From assembly GCA_964016885.1 (NCBI GenBank), contig OZ024749.1, positions 21,328,001 to 21,392,000 of the forward strand: a stretch of 64,000 bases of DNA, given 5' to 3'. The position numbers and the translations under genes are program-made. The stretch is from Eledone cirrhosa (taxonomy: Eukaryota). The notes beneath the pieces were generated by a model, which ran no database searches, was not told the origin of the DNA, and saw only the letters and a program-made list of their open reading frames with translations. Of the stretch, positions 1 through 64,000 are shown one piece after another (positions within the stretch are counted from its first letter, which is position 1; each line of letters starts with the position of its first letter).

Positions 1-271
1 TCTATTTTTCGATTTTTTCATTTTTCGATTTTTTTAGATTTTTTCATTTCATCCTTCTTTCGATTTTTTCGATTTTTTCATTTCTTTCTAATTTTCTTCT
101 TTTCCTTTTTTCGATTTTACGATTTTTTAGATTTTTTAATTTTTTCACTATTTCATTTTATCGAATATTCGATTTTCTCGTTTTTTTCATTTTACCATAT
201 TTTCTATTTTTTCTATTTTTTCTATTTTTCGATTTTTCGATTTTTTTCATTTTTTCATTTTCTCAATTTTT
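1..271 (+). repeat. T-rich spacer, long type D (5'-truncated by window edge); typical size 220-300 bp
   Basis: Landmarks ATCCTTCTTTCGA...CACTATTTCA...TTCTCG...TTACCA...TTCTCAATTTTTT, exiting into AGCGTTAGGGTTATGTGTAAGG. Paralogues at ~3159, 5380, 10801, 16006, 18061, 20364, 22071, 26105, 27824, 29984, 32553, 34253, 35666, 42776. Confidence 0.9.
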
Positions 272-405
272 TAGCGTTAGGGTTATGTGTAAGGTTAGCG
301 TTAAGGTTAGGGATAGGTTTAGGGTGTAGGATTTAGGGTTTAGGTTTAGGGTTATGGTTAGGATTAGGGTTAAGGCTAGTGTTAGTGTTACGGTTAGAGT
401 TAGGT

Positions 406-440
<35 letters not shown>

Positions 441-448
441 GGTTACGT

Positions 449-511
449 TTATTCATTTTTTTGATTTTTTCACTATTTTCTATTTTTCATTTCTTCATTT
501 TCTCAATTTTT
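449..511 (+). repeat. T-rich spacer, short type A (~63 bp)
   Basis: Entry TTACGTTTATTCA, body ...TTTCTTCATTTTCTCAATTTTTT, exit AGCGTTAGGGTTATGGGTAAGG. Paralogues at ~2902, 3995, 4996, 5832, 7797, 11261, 13520, 15748, 16896, 17702, 18498, 24840, 30872, 36679, 41413, 42392, 43214. Confidence 0.9.
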
Positions 512-804
512 TAGCGTTAGGGTTATGGGTAAGGTTAGCGTTAAGGTTAGGGATAGGTTTAGGGTTAGGGTTAGGGTTAGGTTTAGGGTTGGGGTTAGGG
601 TTAGTGTTAGGGTTAATGTTTAGGATTTAGGGTTTAGGGTCATGGTTAGGGTTAGGATTAGGTTTAGGGTCAGTGTTAGTGCTCCAGTTACAGTTAGGGT
701 TAGGGTTAGGATGTAGGGTTAGGGTTAGGGTTAGGATTAATGTTTAGCGTTTTGGGTTTAGGGTTAGGGTTAGGATTGGGGTTAGGTTTAGGGTTAGGTC
801 TAGT

Positions 805-836
<32 letters not shown>

Positions 837-1322
837 GTAGGGTTAAATTTAGGGTTAGGGTTAGGGTTAGGGTTAGCGTTAGTGTTAGGGTTAGGGTTAG
901 GACTAGGGTTAGCGTTAAGGTTAGGGTTAGGGTTGGGGTTAGGGTTAGGGTTAGGGTTACGATTAGGATTTAGGGTTAGGGTTAGGGTTAATGTTTAGGA
1001 TTTAGGGTTTAGGGTTATGGTTAGGTTTAGGGTTAGGGTTAGGGTTAGTGTTAGTGTTCCGGTTACAGTTAGGGTTATGGTTAGGATTTAGGGTTAGGTT
1101 TAGGGTTACGATTAATGTTTAGCGTTTTGGGATTAGGGTTAGGGTTAGGATTAGGGTTAGGGTTAGTGTTAGGGTTCGGGGTAGGGTTAAATTTAGGGTT
1201 AGGGTTAGGGTTAGCGTTAGTGTTAGAGTTAGGGGTAGGGTTAGCGTTAAGGTTAGGGTTAGGGTTAGGGTTAGGGTTAGGGTTAGGATTAGGATTTAGG
1301 GTTAGGGTTATGTTTAGGGTTA

Positions 1323-1391
1323 ATAATTTTTCATTTTTACGATTTTTTCATTTTTTCGATCTTTTCGATTTTTTCATTATTTCAATTTTTT
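1323..1391 (+). repeat. T-rich spacer, short type B (40-70 bp)
   Basis: Entry after TTATGTTTAGGGTTAA, body TTTTTCATTTTTACGA...CATTATTTCAATTTTTT, exit AGCGTTAGGGTTAGGGGTATGGATAGG. Paralogues at ~4478, 6359, 8338, 9270, 10391, 11797, 12781, 14065, 15025, 17402, 19018, 31363, 37164, 38704, 41959, 43848, 46407. Confidence 0.88.
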
Positions 1392-1729
1392 AGCGTTAGG
1401 GTTAGGGGTATGGATAGGGTTATTGTTTAGGGTTTAGGGTTTAGGGTTATGGTTAGGGTTAGGGTTAGGGTTAGGGTTAGGGTTAGGGTTAGGTTTACTG
1501 TTAGGTTCAGGGTTAGGGTTAGGGTTATGGTTTAGGATTTAGGGTTTAGGTTTAGGGTTATGGTTATGGTTAGGGTTAAGGTTAGTGTTAGTGTCTCGGT
1601 TAGAGTTAGGGTTAGGGTTAGCGTTTAGGGTTAGGGTTATTGTTATGGTTAGGGTTAGGATTAGGGTTAGTGTTAGTGTTACGGTTAGAGTTAGAGTAAG
1701 GATTAGGGTTTAGGGTTAGGGTTAGGGTT

Positions 1730-60632: not shown

Positions 60633-60672
<40 letters not shown>

Positions 60673-61146
60673 TGGTTAGGGTTAGGTTTAGGGTTAGGTT
60701 TACGTTAGGGTAGGGTATAGGGTTAGGTTTAGGGGTAGGGTTAGCGTTAATGTTAGGGTTAGTGTTAGGGTTAAGGTGAGGGTTAGCGTTTAGGGTTATG
60801 GTTAGGTTTAGCGTTAGGGTTAGGGTTAGGGTTAGGTTTAGGGTGTTTTTTTCATTTTTTCGAATTTTCAATTTTTCGATTTTTTCGATTTTTCTATTCT
60901 TAGATTTCATTTTTTAAATTTATTTCGAATTTTTCGAATTTTTCATTTTTTGAGTTTTAGATTTTTTCATTTTTTCGAATTTTTCATTTTTTTCGAAATT
61001 TCAATTTTACCATTTTTTCGATTTTTCTATTCTTAGATTTTTTTTTTTTTCTTGGTTAGGGTTAAGGTTAGGGTTTAGGTTTAGGGTTTACGGTTAGGGT
61101 TAGGGTTAGGGTTAGGTTTAGTGTTAGGATTAGGTTTAGGGTTAGA

Positions 61147-61182
<36 letters not shown>

Positions 61183-62970
61183 GGTTAGGGTTAGTGTTAG
61201 TGGTAGGGTTAAGTTTAGGGTTATGGTTATGGTTAGGGTTAGCGTTAGGATTAGGATTAGGGTTAGGGGTAGGATTAGCGTTAATGTTAGGGTTAGGATT
61301 AGGATTAGGATTTAGGGTTAGGGTTAGGGTTAGGGTTAGGGTTAGCGTTAGGGTTAGGGTTAGGCTTAGGATTAGGATTTAGGGTTAGGCTTAGGGTTAG
61401 GTTTTGGGTTAGGGTTTAGGGTTATGGTTAGGGTTAGTGTTTAGGGTTAGTGTTAGAGTTAAGGTTGGGGTTATGGTTAGGGTTATGGTTAGGGTTATGG
61501 TTAATGTTTAGGGTTTAGTATATAGGGTTAGGGTTAGGCTTAGGGTTAGGGTTAAGGTTAGGATTAGGTTTAGTATTAGGGTTAGTGTTTAGGGTTAGGA
61601 TTAGGGGTAGGGTTAAGTTTAGGGTTAGGGTTAGGGTTTGGGTTAGCGTTAGCGTTACTTTTAGGGTTAGGGTTAGGGGTAGGGTTAGCGTTAAGGTTAG
61701 GGTTAGGGTTAGGTTTAGCGGTAGGGTTAGGGTTAGGATTAGGATTTAGGGTTAGGGTTTAGTTTAGGTTTAAGCTTTTTTCATTATTTCGATTTTTTAA
61801 ATTGTTCGATTGTTGCGATTCTTTCATTATTTCATTTTAAAAAATTTTTTCGATTTTTTCATTTTTTCCTTTTTGGGATTTTTCCATTTTTTCGGTTTTT
61901 TCATTTTTTTATTTTTTCAATTTTTTAGCGTTAGGGTTAGGGTTAGGGTTAGGGTTAGGGTTAGGGTTAGGGTATAGGATTTAGGGTTTAGGTTTATGAT
62001 TACGGTTAGGGTTAGGGTTAAGGTTAGTGTTGGTGTTACGGTTAGAGTTAGGGTTAGGGTCAGGGTTATGGTTAGGGTTAGGTTTAGGGTTAGCGTTAGG
62101 GTTAGGTTTAGGGTTAGGTTTAGGGGTAGGGTTAGCGTTAATGTTAGGGTTAGGGTTAGGGTTAGGGTTAAGGTGAGGGTTGGGATTTAGGGTTATGGTT
62201 AGGTTTATCGTTAGTGTTATGTTTAGGGTTAGGATTAGAATTTAGAGTTAGGGTTAGGGTTAGGGTTAGGGTTAGGGTTAAAGTTAGGGTTAGGGTTTAG
62301 GATTTAGCGTTTAGGGTTAGGGTTAGGGTGAGGGTTAGTGTTAGGATTAGGGATACTGTTAGTGTTACGGTTATAATCAGGATTAGGGTAGGGTTTAGGG
62401 TTAGGTTTAGGGTTAGGTTTAGGGTTAGCGTTACCGTTAGGATTTTTTATATTTTTTTACTTTTTCACTTTTTAAGTTTTTCAAATCTTTTCGATTTTTT
62501 CATTTTTTCATTTTCTCAATTTTTTAGCGTTAGGGTTCGGGTTAGTGTTAGCGGTGAGGTTACGGTTAGGGTTAGGGTTAGGATTAGGGTTTAGGATTTA
62601 GGGTTTAGGGTTAAGGTTAGGGTTAGTGTTAGGGTTAGTGTTAGTATTACGGTTAGAGTTAAGGTTAGGGTTGGGGTTTAGGGTTTAGGTTTTAGGGTTA
62701 GGGTTAGGTTTAGTGTTAGGGTTAGTGTTAGTGTTAGGGTTAGTGTTAGGGTTAGGGTTAAGTTTAGGGTTAGGGTTAGATTTATGGTTAGTGTTATGGT
62801 TAGGATTAGGTTTAGGGGTAGGGTTAGCGTTAATGTTAGGGTTAGGGTTATTGTTAAGGTTAGGGTTAAGTTTAGGGTTATGGTTAAGGTTAGGGTTAGG
62901 GTTAGGGTTAGTGTTAGGGTTAGGATTTAGGATTTATGGTTTAGGGTTAGGGTAAGGGTCAGTGTTAGGG

Positions 62971-63010
<40 letters not shown>

Positions 63011-63105
63011 TGTTTAGGGTTAGGGTTAGGGGTAGGGTTAGCGTTAAGGTTAGGGTTAGGGTTTGGAGTAGGATTTAGGATTAGGTTTAGGGTTAGGGTT
63101 AAGGT
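57925..63105 (+). repeat. Higher-order repeat family H3, copy 3 (5167 bp plus terminal 14-bp junction homology)
   Basis: Identity to copy 2 ends after GTTAGGGTTAAGGT at 63,105, which is followed by TTTTC instead of GAGGG. Confidence 0.95.
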
Positions 63106-63625
63106 TTTTCATTTTTTCGATTTTTTCAATTTTTCGATTTTTTCGATTCTTTCATTATTTAATTTTAAAATTTTTTTTGGATTTTTTCATTTTTTTCCTT
63201 TTTGGGATTTTTCCATTTTTTCGAATTTTTCATTTTTTCATTTTTTTCAATTTTTTAGAGTTAGGGTTAGGGGTATGGATAGGGTTAGTGTTTAGGGTTT
63301 AGGGTTTAGAGTTATGGTTAGGGTTAGGGTTAGGGTTAGGATTTAGGGTTAGGGTTAGGGTTATAGTTAGGGTTAGGTTTAGGGTTAGGTTTCCGTTAGG
63401 GTAGGGTTTAGGGTTAGGTTTAGGGGTAGGGTTAGCGTTAATGTTAGGGTTAGTGTTAGGGTTAAGGTGAGGGTTAGGGTTTAGGGTTATGGTTAGGTTT
63501 AGCGTTAGGGTTAGAGTTAGGGTTAGGATTAGGTTTAGGTTTGTTTTTTCATTTTTTCTAATTTTCAATTTTTCGATTTTTTCGATTTTTTCATCATTTC
63601 ATTTTTTAAATTTATTTTATTTTTT

Positions 63626-63669
63626 CATTTTTTCATTTTTTCATTTTTTCATTTTTTCATTTTTTCATT
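63626..63669 (+). repeat. Perfect (CATTTTTT)5.5 microsatellite inside a T-rich spacer
   Basis: C at 63626, 63634, 63642, 63650, 63658 and 63666 (exact 8-bp period). Confidence 0.85.
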
Positions 63670-64000
63670 ATTTCATTTTTTTATTTATAGATTTTTTCAT
63701 TTTTTCGAATTTTTCATTTTTTTCGAAATTTTGATTTTCTCGATTTTTTCATTTTACCCTTTTTACGAATTCTTCTATATTTTCGATTTTTTTCGATTTT
63801 TTCATTTTTCCGGGTTAGGGTTAGGGTTAGAGTTTACGGTTAGGGTTTACGGTTAGGGTTAGGGTTAGGATTTAGAGTTAGGGTTAGTGTTTCGTTTTTT
63901 AATTTTTTCGATTTTTTCATTTTTCGATTTTTTAATTTTTCGATTTTTTTGGATTTTTTCATTTTATCCTTCTTTCGATATTTTTGATTTATTCGATTTT

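What the first reader, a model, noticed from the sequence alone, without database searches (positions are those of the whole stretch)
1..64000. Two-component, strictly polarised telomere-derived satellite: candidate complex or recombination-maintained telomere/subtelomere system
Seen: at least 64 kb of variant-laden TTAGGG tracts alternating with ~110-115 T-tract spacers, no inversion, no unique sequence, and identical variant patterns copied as multi-kb blocks. Known: telomerase writes only its template repeat, so reproducible variant patterns and spacers must have been propagated by DNA-templated copying. Precedents are TALT elements of C. elegans ALT survivors, yeast Y' amplification and Chironomus complex telomeric repeats, but I do not recognise this TTAGGG + T6CGA architecture as a described family. 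Inference: it is either a chromosome-end array extended by recombination/BIR, or a telomere-born interstitial or centromeric HOR satellite.
Basis: partly seen in the sequence, partly recalled or inferred. Interest (0 to 1): 0.8.

Follow-up and report, generated by a model that had tools for sequence, protein, structure and literature searches.

The report
Mid-chromosome telomere-repeat mosaic satellite
This window is part of a 518-kb satellite in the middle of a chromosome of a probably octopus-like animal, made of worn telomere repeats alternating with T-rich tracts; it likely grew by local block copying and is likely not a telomere-maintenance system, because the chromosome ends that were assembled carry plain telomere repeats.

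Summary
The window has 3,766 TTAGGG, 0 CCCTAA, 114 T-tract spacers and multi-kb copied blocks (up to 99.98% identical). It lies at 21.33-21.39 Mb of a 56.8-Mb scaffold, inside one gap-free 518-kb array that holds 224 of 224 genome-wide matches to the junction motif. Ten of 54 chromosome ends sampled carry telomere, all plain TTAGGG without spacer, and a TERT exon is present. Both components also occur alone. At least 12 other large degenerate-TTAGGG arrays lack spacers (one about 1.7 Mb), and small T5-6CGA/CA tracts lie elsewhere. The array's left end runs seamlessly out of the (CTAGG)n/T-tract core of a Helitron-type element, a possible seed. Best reading: a heterochromatic-type interstitial telomeric satellite with a mosaic unit, amplified in place. 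The closest precedent is the Arabidopsis CenTel ITR-1R array (484 kb); the partner repeat differs. It is a new variant of a known kind, and I found no description of it in cephalopods. A centromere role or fusion-relic origin is untested.

The parts
1..64000 (+). Interior 64 kb of a 517.6-kb compound satellite (G000:C9:~21,286,010-21,803,570; it starts about 42 kb before the window and ends about 412 kb after it). G-rich and T-rich strand is + throughout the window.
1..272 (+). Example long T-tract spacer (T5-6CGA / T5-6CA units), cut by the window start; ends in the common T-run-AGCGTTAGGG junction
273..445 (+). Example degenerate TTAGGG tract (variants mostly at the G positions: TTAGTG, TTAGGA, TTATGG, TTAGCG, TTTAGGG)
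2477..7475 (+). Block duplicated at 15,378-20,363 (98.7% identity over aligned bases)
15378..20363 (+). Second copy of the 2,477-7,475 block, about 12.9 kb downstream
22599..22808 (+). Longest pure TTAGGG run in the window (35 units); the next longest is 9 units
43848..49601 (+). Two related higher-order units (2.56 and 3.19 kb; 99.3% identity over aligned bases)
49602..54768 (+). 5,167-bp higher-order repeat, copy 1
54769..59935 (+). 5,167-bp higher-order repeat, copy 2 (1 mismatch to copy 1; 151 of 151 variant hexamers shared)
59936..62525 (+). Partial third copy of the 5,167-bp unit (99.9%)

Best explanation
The window is part of a single 518-kb satellite in the interior of a chromosome, built of degenerate TTAGGG tracts alternating with T-tract microsatellite, that likely grew in place by repeated tandem block duplication and likely has no role in maintaining chromosome ends. 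Shown: interstitial single-locus position; about 1,230 tract-plus-spacer units of variable length (median 354 bp); local higher-order repeats of 1-59 kb; similarity that falls with distance along the array; plain TTAGGG at the assembled ends; both components occurring separately elsewhere. Inferred, step 1: a small mixed seed formed where TTAGGG met a T-tract repeat. The leading candidate is TTAGGG joined, perhaps by telomerase at a break, to the (CTAGG)n/T-tract core of a Helitron-type element that abuts the left edge (about 40% for this specific seed). Inferred, step 2: slippage varied tract lengths, and unequal exchange or break-induced copying duplicated blocks at growing scales; every copy inherited the seed's orientation, which explains the strict polarity. 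Inferred, step 3: without telomerase resynthesis, point mutations (mostly at the Gs, mostly G>T) accumulated and were copied along. It would behave as a heterochromatic interstitial telomeric sequence (het-ITS), one of at least 13 in this genome and the only one found with a spacer.
For: Position and extent: (no N in 582 kb read continuously; ordinary TE-rich DNA on both sides). Single locus: 224 of 224 junction-motif matches lie in the array; 161 of 163 matches to a looser TTAGGG-to-spacer pattern. Local copying: periods of 1.0-59 kb that change along the array; neighbouring 20-kb windows mostly 95-99% alike against 89-92% for distant ones (k-mer estimate); 151 of 151 variants shared in one HOR pair. 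Ends: 10 of 54 sampled ends carry telomere, none with spacer; the five left telomeres measured are 99.8-100% canonical against 42-73% in 17 interstitial samples. Components alone: 12 other degenerate arrays with 0 spacer 7-mers in every sample read; spacer-only tracts at C1:29.66, C8:29.06, C10:15.31, C10:37.29, C21:27.14 Mb and C222; an unamplified mixed relative at C9:18.12 Mb with the same polarity. Seed: about 1 kb at the left edge is 78-88% identical (best local alignments) to the cores of six dispersed elements, in four of which TC and/or hairpin-CTAG termini were matched; CTAGG runs straight into TTAGGG; no (CTAGG)3 tract in 506 kb of other fetched non-telomeric DNA. Precedent.
Against: Function is untested: no chromatin, cytology or read data. 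44 of 54 ends have no assembled telomere, so a related array at an unassembled end cannot be excluded. The Helitron core spacer is mostly T5-7CA, partly palindromic and has no CGA among its common units, while the array spacer is one-way and 32% CGA. No Helitron terminus was found in the array's flanks. About 1 kb of spacer-free TTAGGG lies between the core and the first spacer. Descent from that element is therefore unproven. Small spacer loci match the array at only 70-75%, so the direction of exchange is unknown. CpGs in spacers show no excess mutation (4.4-5.2 per 1,000 against 5.7-7.7 for other C/G), so there is no sequence sign of methylated heterochromatin. No large satellite lies within 56 kb left or 48 kb right, so a pericentromeric setting is not shown. 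Synteny across the locus was not tested.
Confidence: 0.65

Rival explanations
1. Fusion or inversion relic: the array is a former chromosome end that became internal and was then amplified by the same block copying. This differs from the best explanation in origin only.
For: Orientation is that of a right-arm end of a 21.8-Mb piece whose left end is a true telomere. The karyotype has four giant scaffolds of 379-443 Mb among 27, with large arrays near the middle of three of them. The C3:150.93 and C4:101.49 arrays start beside the same repeat element and share a TTAGCTG variant with C1:217.8 and C3:184.7. C6:61.736 has a TTAGGG-to-CCCTAA head-to-head switch.
Against: No head-to-head switch at the C9 array's right edge, which ends abruptly in ordinary DNA. 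The one telomere-subtelomere junction read in full (C9 left) has no spacer and different variants (TTGGGG, CTAGGG). The C9 array lacks TTAGCTG. Short TTAGGG insertions of 0.5-1 kb with similar variants occur at ordinary interior sites, so seeds need no fusion.
Confidence: 0.17
2. Functional centromere: the array is the CENP-A-bearing satellite of this chromosome, with phased T-tracts and higher-order repeats shaped by centromere drive.
For: Half-megabase size, higher-order repeats, position at 38% of the scaffold, no multi-kb insertion (TTAGGG at least 229 per 5 kb from 21.295 to 21.75 Mb and at least 96 per 2.5 kb from there to 21.80 Mb). Het-ITSs are mainly centromeric or pericentromeric. 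The C2 and C7 arrays abut 196-bp and 276-bp satellites.
Against: The spacer-bearing form is unique to one locus. Three low-frequency probes found large arrays on 9 of 27 chromosomes, two each on C1, C2 and C3, not one per chromosome. No fixed monomer length. In Arabidopsis, comparable mosaic arrays exclude CENH3.
Confidence: 0.12
3. Recombination-maintained telomere or subtelomere system of the TALT, Y' or Chironomus kind, possibly misplaced by scaffolding.
For: Strict polarity and copied variant blocks. 44 of 54 ends have no assembled telomere. Full-length TERT was not shown; the RNA-binding-domain model found nothing.
Against: Interstitial and contiguous with unique flanks, without gaps. Junction motif at one locus only, including 1,796 contigs. 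Ten plain telomeres. TERT exon in three copies. The right end is not pure TTAGGG.
Confidence: 0.03
4. Assembly artefact: the length or copy structure of the array is mis-assembled.
For: Near-identical 5-11 kb tandem units are hard to assemble; no read-level check was obtained.
Against: Dozens of distinct local periods, gradual divergence along the array, private mutations with a non-random spectrum and clean unique junctions. An artefact could change copy number but not the architecture.
Confidence: 0.03

Closest known systems
Arabidopsis CenTel mosaic satellites, ITR-1R (484 kb) and ITR-4L (bioRxiv 10.64898/2026.05.10.723265; parts 1-3 of 4 of the text read; supplements not seen)
   Same: Half-megabase interstitial array of telomeric-repeat islands alternating with a second repeat in a fixed relative orientation; multiple higher-order blocks; amplification in place; independent of ordinary telomerase-type ends.
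   Different: There the spacer is the neighbouring centromeric 178-bp satellite, units have a sharp 530/600-bp period and block duplications go with embedded TEs. Here the spacer is a T-tract microsatellite, unit length is variable (quartiles 255-505 bp), no large satellite is adjacent and no multi-kb insertion was seen; the host is an animal with TTAGGG.
Heterochromatic interstitial telomeric sequences (het-ITS), e.g. Chinese hamster (review PMC6410037; passages and section 2.1 read)
   Same: Large interior blocks of telomeric repeat, longer than the true telomeres, amplified by unequal crossing-over, conversion or slippage, often flanked by TEs and satellites.
   Different: Interleaved with a second microsatellite; location relative to the centromere and chromatin state unknown; I found no report from cephalopods.
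Helitron/Helentron-borne tandem repeats that relate to satellites, e.g. oyster Cg_HINE (PMC7492417; passages read)
   Same: A dispersed non-autonomous rolling-circle-type element in a mollusc carries a central tandem region; here a (CTAGG)n/T-tract core of like architecture abuts the array.
   Different: The array itself is not enclosed by element termini, is 250 times longer than the 2-kb element, and uses TTAGGG and CGA-rich spacers.
C. elegans TALT (PMC4595603; abstract read), yeast Y' type I survivors (passage), Chironomus complex telomeric repeats (recalled, no call)
   Same: Telomere-like tracts flanking non-telomeric blocks, copied by recombination.
   Different: Those act at chromosome ends, on all or most ends, without telomerase; this array is one interior locus in a genome with plain TTAGGG ends and a TERT exon.

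Membership tests
het-ITS | Large block of telomeric repeats at an interior site | tested here: met
   518 kb at 21.3-21.8 Mb of 56.8 Mb
het-ITS | Amplified beyond true telomere length | tested here: met
   518 kb against about 10.3 kb assembled at the C9 left telomere
het-ITS | Centromeric or pericentromeric heterochromatin | not testable with these tools
   No chromatin data; no CpG decay; no adjacent large satellite
CenTel mosaic ITR | Telomeric islands alternating with a second repeat in fixed orientation | tested here: met
   (TTTTTCGA 4,221 against reverse 0 from 21.291 Mb on)
CenTel mosaic ITR | Higher-order blocks from amplification in place | tested here: met
CenTel mosaic ITR | Spacer derived from the neighbouring centromeric satellite | tested here: not met
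   Spacer is a T-tract microsatellite; no large satellite in 56 kb left or 48 kb right; the centromeric repeat of this genome is not known
CenTel mosaic ITR | Sharp monomer period | tested here: not met
   Unit median 354 bp, quartiles 255-505
CenTel mosaic ITR | Exclusion of centromeric histone and telomere-binding proteins | not testable with these tools
   Needs ChIP
TALT / Y' / Chironomus-type ends | Located at chromosome ends | tested here: not met
TALT / Y' / Chironomus-type ends | Copied across many ends | tested here: not met
   224 of 224 motif matches in one array; 0 of 10 assembled telomeres with spacer; 44 of 54 ends lack assembled telomere
TALT / Y' / Chironomus-type ends | Telomerase lost | tested here: inconclusive
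   TERT_C exon, 38.8 bits against cut-off 27, three copies, matches solved TERT; PF12009 no match; intactness not tested
Non-autonomous Helitron (the dispersed element whose core abuts the array) | 5' TC and 3' CTAG termini between A and T | tested here: met
   Both termini about 2.0 kb apart in the C26:3.15 Mb copy; single termini matched in three other copies; criteria from PMC4344730 passages
Non-autonomous Helitron (the dispersed element whose core abuts the array) | Hairpin before the 3' end | tested here: inconclusive
   Predicted in the C6 copy, -5.8 kcal/mol, z -1.6, 17 of 200 shuffles as good
Non-autonomous Helitron (the dispersed element whose core abuts the array) | Autonomous Rep/helicase partner; no target-site duplication | not tested
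   No call
Helitron-internal satellite (the array itself) | Array enclosed by element termini | tested here: not met
   No terminus pattern in the four flanking 10-kb loci

The most novel reading that the evidence does not exclude
A rolling-circle transposon's internal (CTAGG)n/T-tract core served as a telomerase seed and structural template for a half-megabase telomeric mosaic satellite, and the megabases of interstitial TTAGGG arrays in this octopod genome mark centromeres or the fusion scars that built its four giant chromosomes.
Probability: 0.22. Interest if true: 0.68.

Novelty: new variant of a known kind. Interest (0 to 1): 0.38.

Why it matters
It is not a new telomere-maintenance system. 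It is an animal counterpart of the mosaic interstitial telomeric satellites just described in Arabidopsis, with a different partner repeat and a candidate seed preserved at its edge, so the birth of such arrays can be tested. The wider result may matter more: this genome holds at least 13 large interstitial TTAGGG arrays (about 3.5 Mb if the probed intervals are continuous) against about 10 kb at the one telomere measured. Probe- or k-mer-based telomere length estimates in this animal would be dominated by interior repeats. The C9 array alone has about 38 TTAGGGTTAG sites per kb against 152 in telomere, about 20,000 sites, a possible sink for telomere proteins (inference). The arrays are also ready markers for asking how four 379-443 Mb chromosomes arose and where octopod centromeres lie.

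Tried and rejected
Public run search: 24 rows, none holding half the words; best share 0.45, and unrelated bat, liver, gut and tick samples at 0.23-0.37, so it is driven by generic TTAGGG words and gives no evidence on other species or on transcription. Read laying returned no result, so read support is open. Rfam: 0 matches in the window. TERT: PF12009 no match; the exon found no homologue in the protein search, so intactness was not tested. Earlier scan notes: nothing for this genome, by words, or relevant by sequence. Spacers as poly(A) tails of telomere-targeting retroelements (TRAS/SART type, recalled): rejected, since spacers are interrupted 8-9-bp repeats with no element body in the window and no multi-kb insertion in the array. 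Spacer as a fixed part of the abundant element beside it at C10:37.29/C222: rejected, since another copy of that element continues differently. C9:18.12 as the partner of an inversion breakpoint: only 71-75% identity, inconclusive. One array per chromosome: not seen (9 of 27). 196-bp satellite as pan-centromeric repeat: one rare variant gave 29 hits on C2, C28, C790 and C1514, none on C9; inconclusive. CpG decay as a sign of methylation: none. Foreign-sequence scan: 158 low-score windows, only the first 20 viewed (one short SINE-like insert near the left edge; SINE label recalled), so small insertions elsewhere are not excluded. Dfam and Repbase were not available.

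
Full report
Observation. The description of the window is accurate. It has 3,766 TTAGGG and 0 CCCTAA; 20 Markov controls give at most 795 TTAGGG and at most 13 T5-6CGA against 345 observed. Segmentation gives 114 spacers and 113 telomere-like tracts covering the window; 88 of 113 spacer ends read T-run then AGCGTTA. Two adjacent 5,167-bp units differ at one base and share 151 of 151 variant hexamers; an older 5-kb duplication is 98.7% identical against 87.2% for a control pair. 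Rfam finds nothing.

Position. The window is G000:C9:21,328,001-21,392,000 in a 3.0-Gb assembly; C9 is 56.78 Mb. I read C9:21,270,001-21,852,000 continuously, with no N. The array runs from about 21,286,010 to 21,803,570 (517.6 kb) between ordinary TE- and microsatellite-rich DNA. A looser TTAGGG-to-spacer pattern has 163 matches, 161 in the array, one at C9:18.12 Mb and one in a short element on C3.

Chromosome ends. There are 27 chromosome-scale scaffolds, four of them 379-443 Mb. I sampled the last 3-25 kb of all 54 ends. Ten carry telomere (left: C7, C9, C10, C13, C19; right: C5, C6, C13, C14, C18); none of the 54 samples shows the spacer array; 44 have no assembled telomere and remain a blind spot. 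The five left telomeres measured are 99.8-100% canonical by a flanked-unit count; the C6 right end is noisy with indels. The C9 left telomere is about 10.3 kb and meets unique DNA through a short TTGGGG/CTAGGG zone without spacer. A TERT C-terminal exon is found three times on C27 (38.8 bits, cut-off 27) and matches solved TERT (best E 0.0028); the RNA-binding-domain model found nothing and intactness is untested.

Anatomy of the whole array. About 1,230 spacers total 159 kb; units have median 354 bp and no fixed period. Dominant repeat distances change along the array: 1.4, 3.8, 5.7, 5.2, 4.4, 9.06, 5.9, 59, 4.9, 3.3 and 11.5 kb. Neighbouring 20-kb windows are mostly 95-99% alike and distant ones 89-92% by a k-mer estimate whose floor is raised by low complexity. 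The two ends are richest in spacer (0.44-0.51 against 0.21-0.40) and among the least duplicated (0.42 and 0.19 of 41-mers repeated), though interior dips of 0.42-0.46 also occur. There is an inverted segment of about 3.3 kb at the left edge and one of about 330 bp at 21,316.6 kb. Only 35-36% of the array is exact TTAGGG and the longest pure run is 45 units. This is the pattern expected of repeated local block duplication (inference).

The components exist separately. Twelve other large degenerate-TTAGGG arrays were found: C1:208.56 (36 kb), C1:217.83 (275-300 kb), C2:9.0 (45 kb or more), C2:241.9-243.6 (about 1.7 Mb, probed, not read through), C3:150.9 (147 or more), C3:184.6 (169 or more), C4:101.5 (67 or more), C6:61.7 (34 or more), C7:29.4 (74 or more), C8:23.5 (323 or more), C13:26.6 (142 or more) and unplaced C1414. 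No sample from them contains the CGA spacer. A 22-mer variant motif has 6,248 matches genome-wide, only 359 of them in the C9 array; the known arrays account for roughly 5,100 by density times minimum length, so more may exist. Short interior tracts of 0.5-1 kb also occur. Spacer-only tracts of 0.2-3.3 kb lie at six places, and a small TE-broken mixed locus with the same polarity lies at C9:18.12 Mb; these match the array at only 70-75%.

Variants. In 17 interstitial samples (two overlap on C9, four come from the C2 array) 60-95% of single substitutions fall on the Gs, and G>T is the largest class in 15 of 17. Private mutations between near-identical copies show the same: at the middle G, 58 G>T, 21 G>A, 14 G>C; rates per 1,000 sites are 8.0 and 7.2 at the second and third G against 2.5 at T. 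Oxidative damage at GGG and general AT-biased mutation would both contribute (established knowledge, not tested). Spacer CpGs are not hypermutable.

Candidate seed. The 1 kb left of the array is a (CCTAG)n then (CTAGG)n region with T/A-tract spacers. Its best local alignments are 78-88% identical to the cores of six dispersed elements on C1, C6, C7 and C26. One copy is about 2.0 kb with a 5' TC and a 3' CTAG between A and T; three others matched one terminus pattern; these are Helitron features (passages of PMC4344730), with a weak predicted hairpin. The core alternates G-rich pentamer tracts and T-tracts on the same strand, as the array does, and its CTAGG runs without a break into TTAGGG. 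No such tract was seen in 506 kb of other fetched DNA, so chance abutment is unlikely. Against descent: the core spacer lacks CGA among its common units and is partly palindromic, no terminus flanks the array, and 1 kb of spacer-free TTAGGG intervenes. I put this seed at about 40%.

Mechanism and rivals. Best (0.65): an interior mixed seed amplified in place into a passive het-ITS-type satellite. Fusion or inversion relic (0.17): favoured by the karyotype, by arrays on C3 and C4 that share a flank and a TTAGCTG variant, and by a head-to-head switch on C6, but no such sign at C9. Functional centromere (0.12): size and HORs fit, but large arrays were seen on 9 of 27 chromosomes and the plant analogue excludes CENH3. 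ALT-type end (0.03) and artefact (0.03).

Comparison and novelty. It works like the Arabidopsis CenTel arrays (bioRxiv 10.64898/2026.05.10.723265, parts 1-3 of 4 read, supplements not seen) and like het-ITSs (PMC6410037, passages and section 2.1). It is not a CenTel member, because the spacer is not a neighbouring centromeric monomer and there is no fixed period. It fails the positional tests for TALT (abstract of PMC4595603) and Y'. Helitron-type carriers of satellite repeats are known in oysters (passages of PMC7492417). Eight literature searches (listings only) showed no report of this array or of large sequenced interstitial telomeric arrays in cephalopods; the library lacks most subscription papers, and Dfam/Repbase were not available. 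Verdict: real feature, new variant of a known kind, interest 0.38.

Noticed in passing
G000:C27:13,140,648; 14,254,631; 14,728,979 (L213-L215): The same TERT C-terminal exon occurs three times within 1.6 Mb, one copy inverted, with near-identical flanks (14 mismatches in 2.5 kb for one pair). TERT triplication or assembly duplication; intactness unknown.
   Followed up: partly
G000:C2:241.907-243.6 Mb (L165-L170, L262-L265): Degenerate TTAGGG array of about 1.7 Mb, with a CCCTAA-to-TTAGGG switch at 241,926.2 kb, followed by at least 500 kb of a 196-bp satellite that also occurs on C28:125 Mb, C790 and C1514. Candidate centromeric region.
   Followed up: partly
G000:C1:217.83, C3:150.93, C3:184.6-184.77, C4:101.49 Mb: Four arrays on the giant chromosomes share a TTAGCTG variant (5-10 per kb; absent or nearly so elsewhere); the two C3 arrays share about 20% of variant 30-mers; C3:150.93 and C4:101.49 start beside the same repeat element.
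   Followed up: partly
G000:C6:61,735.9 kb (L177): Head-to-head TTAGGG to CCCTAA switch across a short insert, the classical end-fusion layout, though both halves share the same unusual variant and it may be an inversion.
   Followed up: partly
G000 C1-C28: Karyotype of 27 chromosome-scale scaffolds with four of 379-443 Mb and the next at 136 Mb, suggesting large fusions.
   Followed up: no
G000:C26:3.1497-3.1517 Mb, C6:74.12, C1:44.16, C7:48.31, C26:5.27 and 5.60 Mb (L205-L212, L220-L222): Non-autonomous Helitron-type family of about 2 kb whose central (CTAGG)n and T5-7CA tracts expand independently from copy to copy.
   Followed up: partly
G000:C7:29,474.4 kb onward (L234, L273); C3:184,769.3 kb (L175); C1:218.13 Mb (L260): Several TTAGGG arrays abut other satellites: a 276-bp AT-rich unit (26 kb or more), a 16-bp G-rich unit that looks telomere-derived, and a 10-11-bp unit.
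   Followed up: no
G000:C21:27.144-27.148 Mb (L218): Spacer-only T5-6CGA/CA array of 3.3 kb with its own 487-bp higher-order period.
   Followed up: partly
G000:C3:238,724,047 (L110): Short inverted-repeat (MITE-like) element with two TTAGGG-like units at its centre.
   Followed up: no
G000:C9:21,270.8-21,275.6 kb (L011): LINE with ORF1-like, endonuclease and reverse-transcriptase frames, broken into several frames, about 10 kb left of the array.
   Followed up: partly
All interstitial arrays sampled: G>T is the leading substitution at the GGG of interstitial TTAGGG in 15 of 17 samples and among private mutations, unlike the TTGGGG/CTAGGG variants at the one true telomere junction read.
   Followed up: partly
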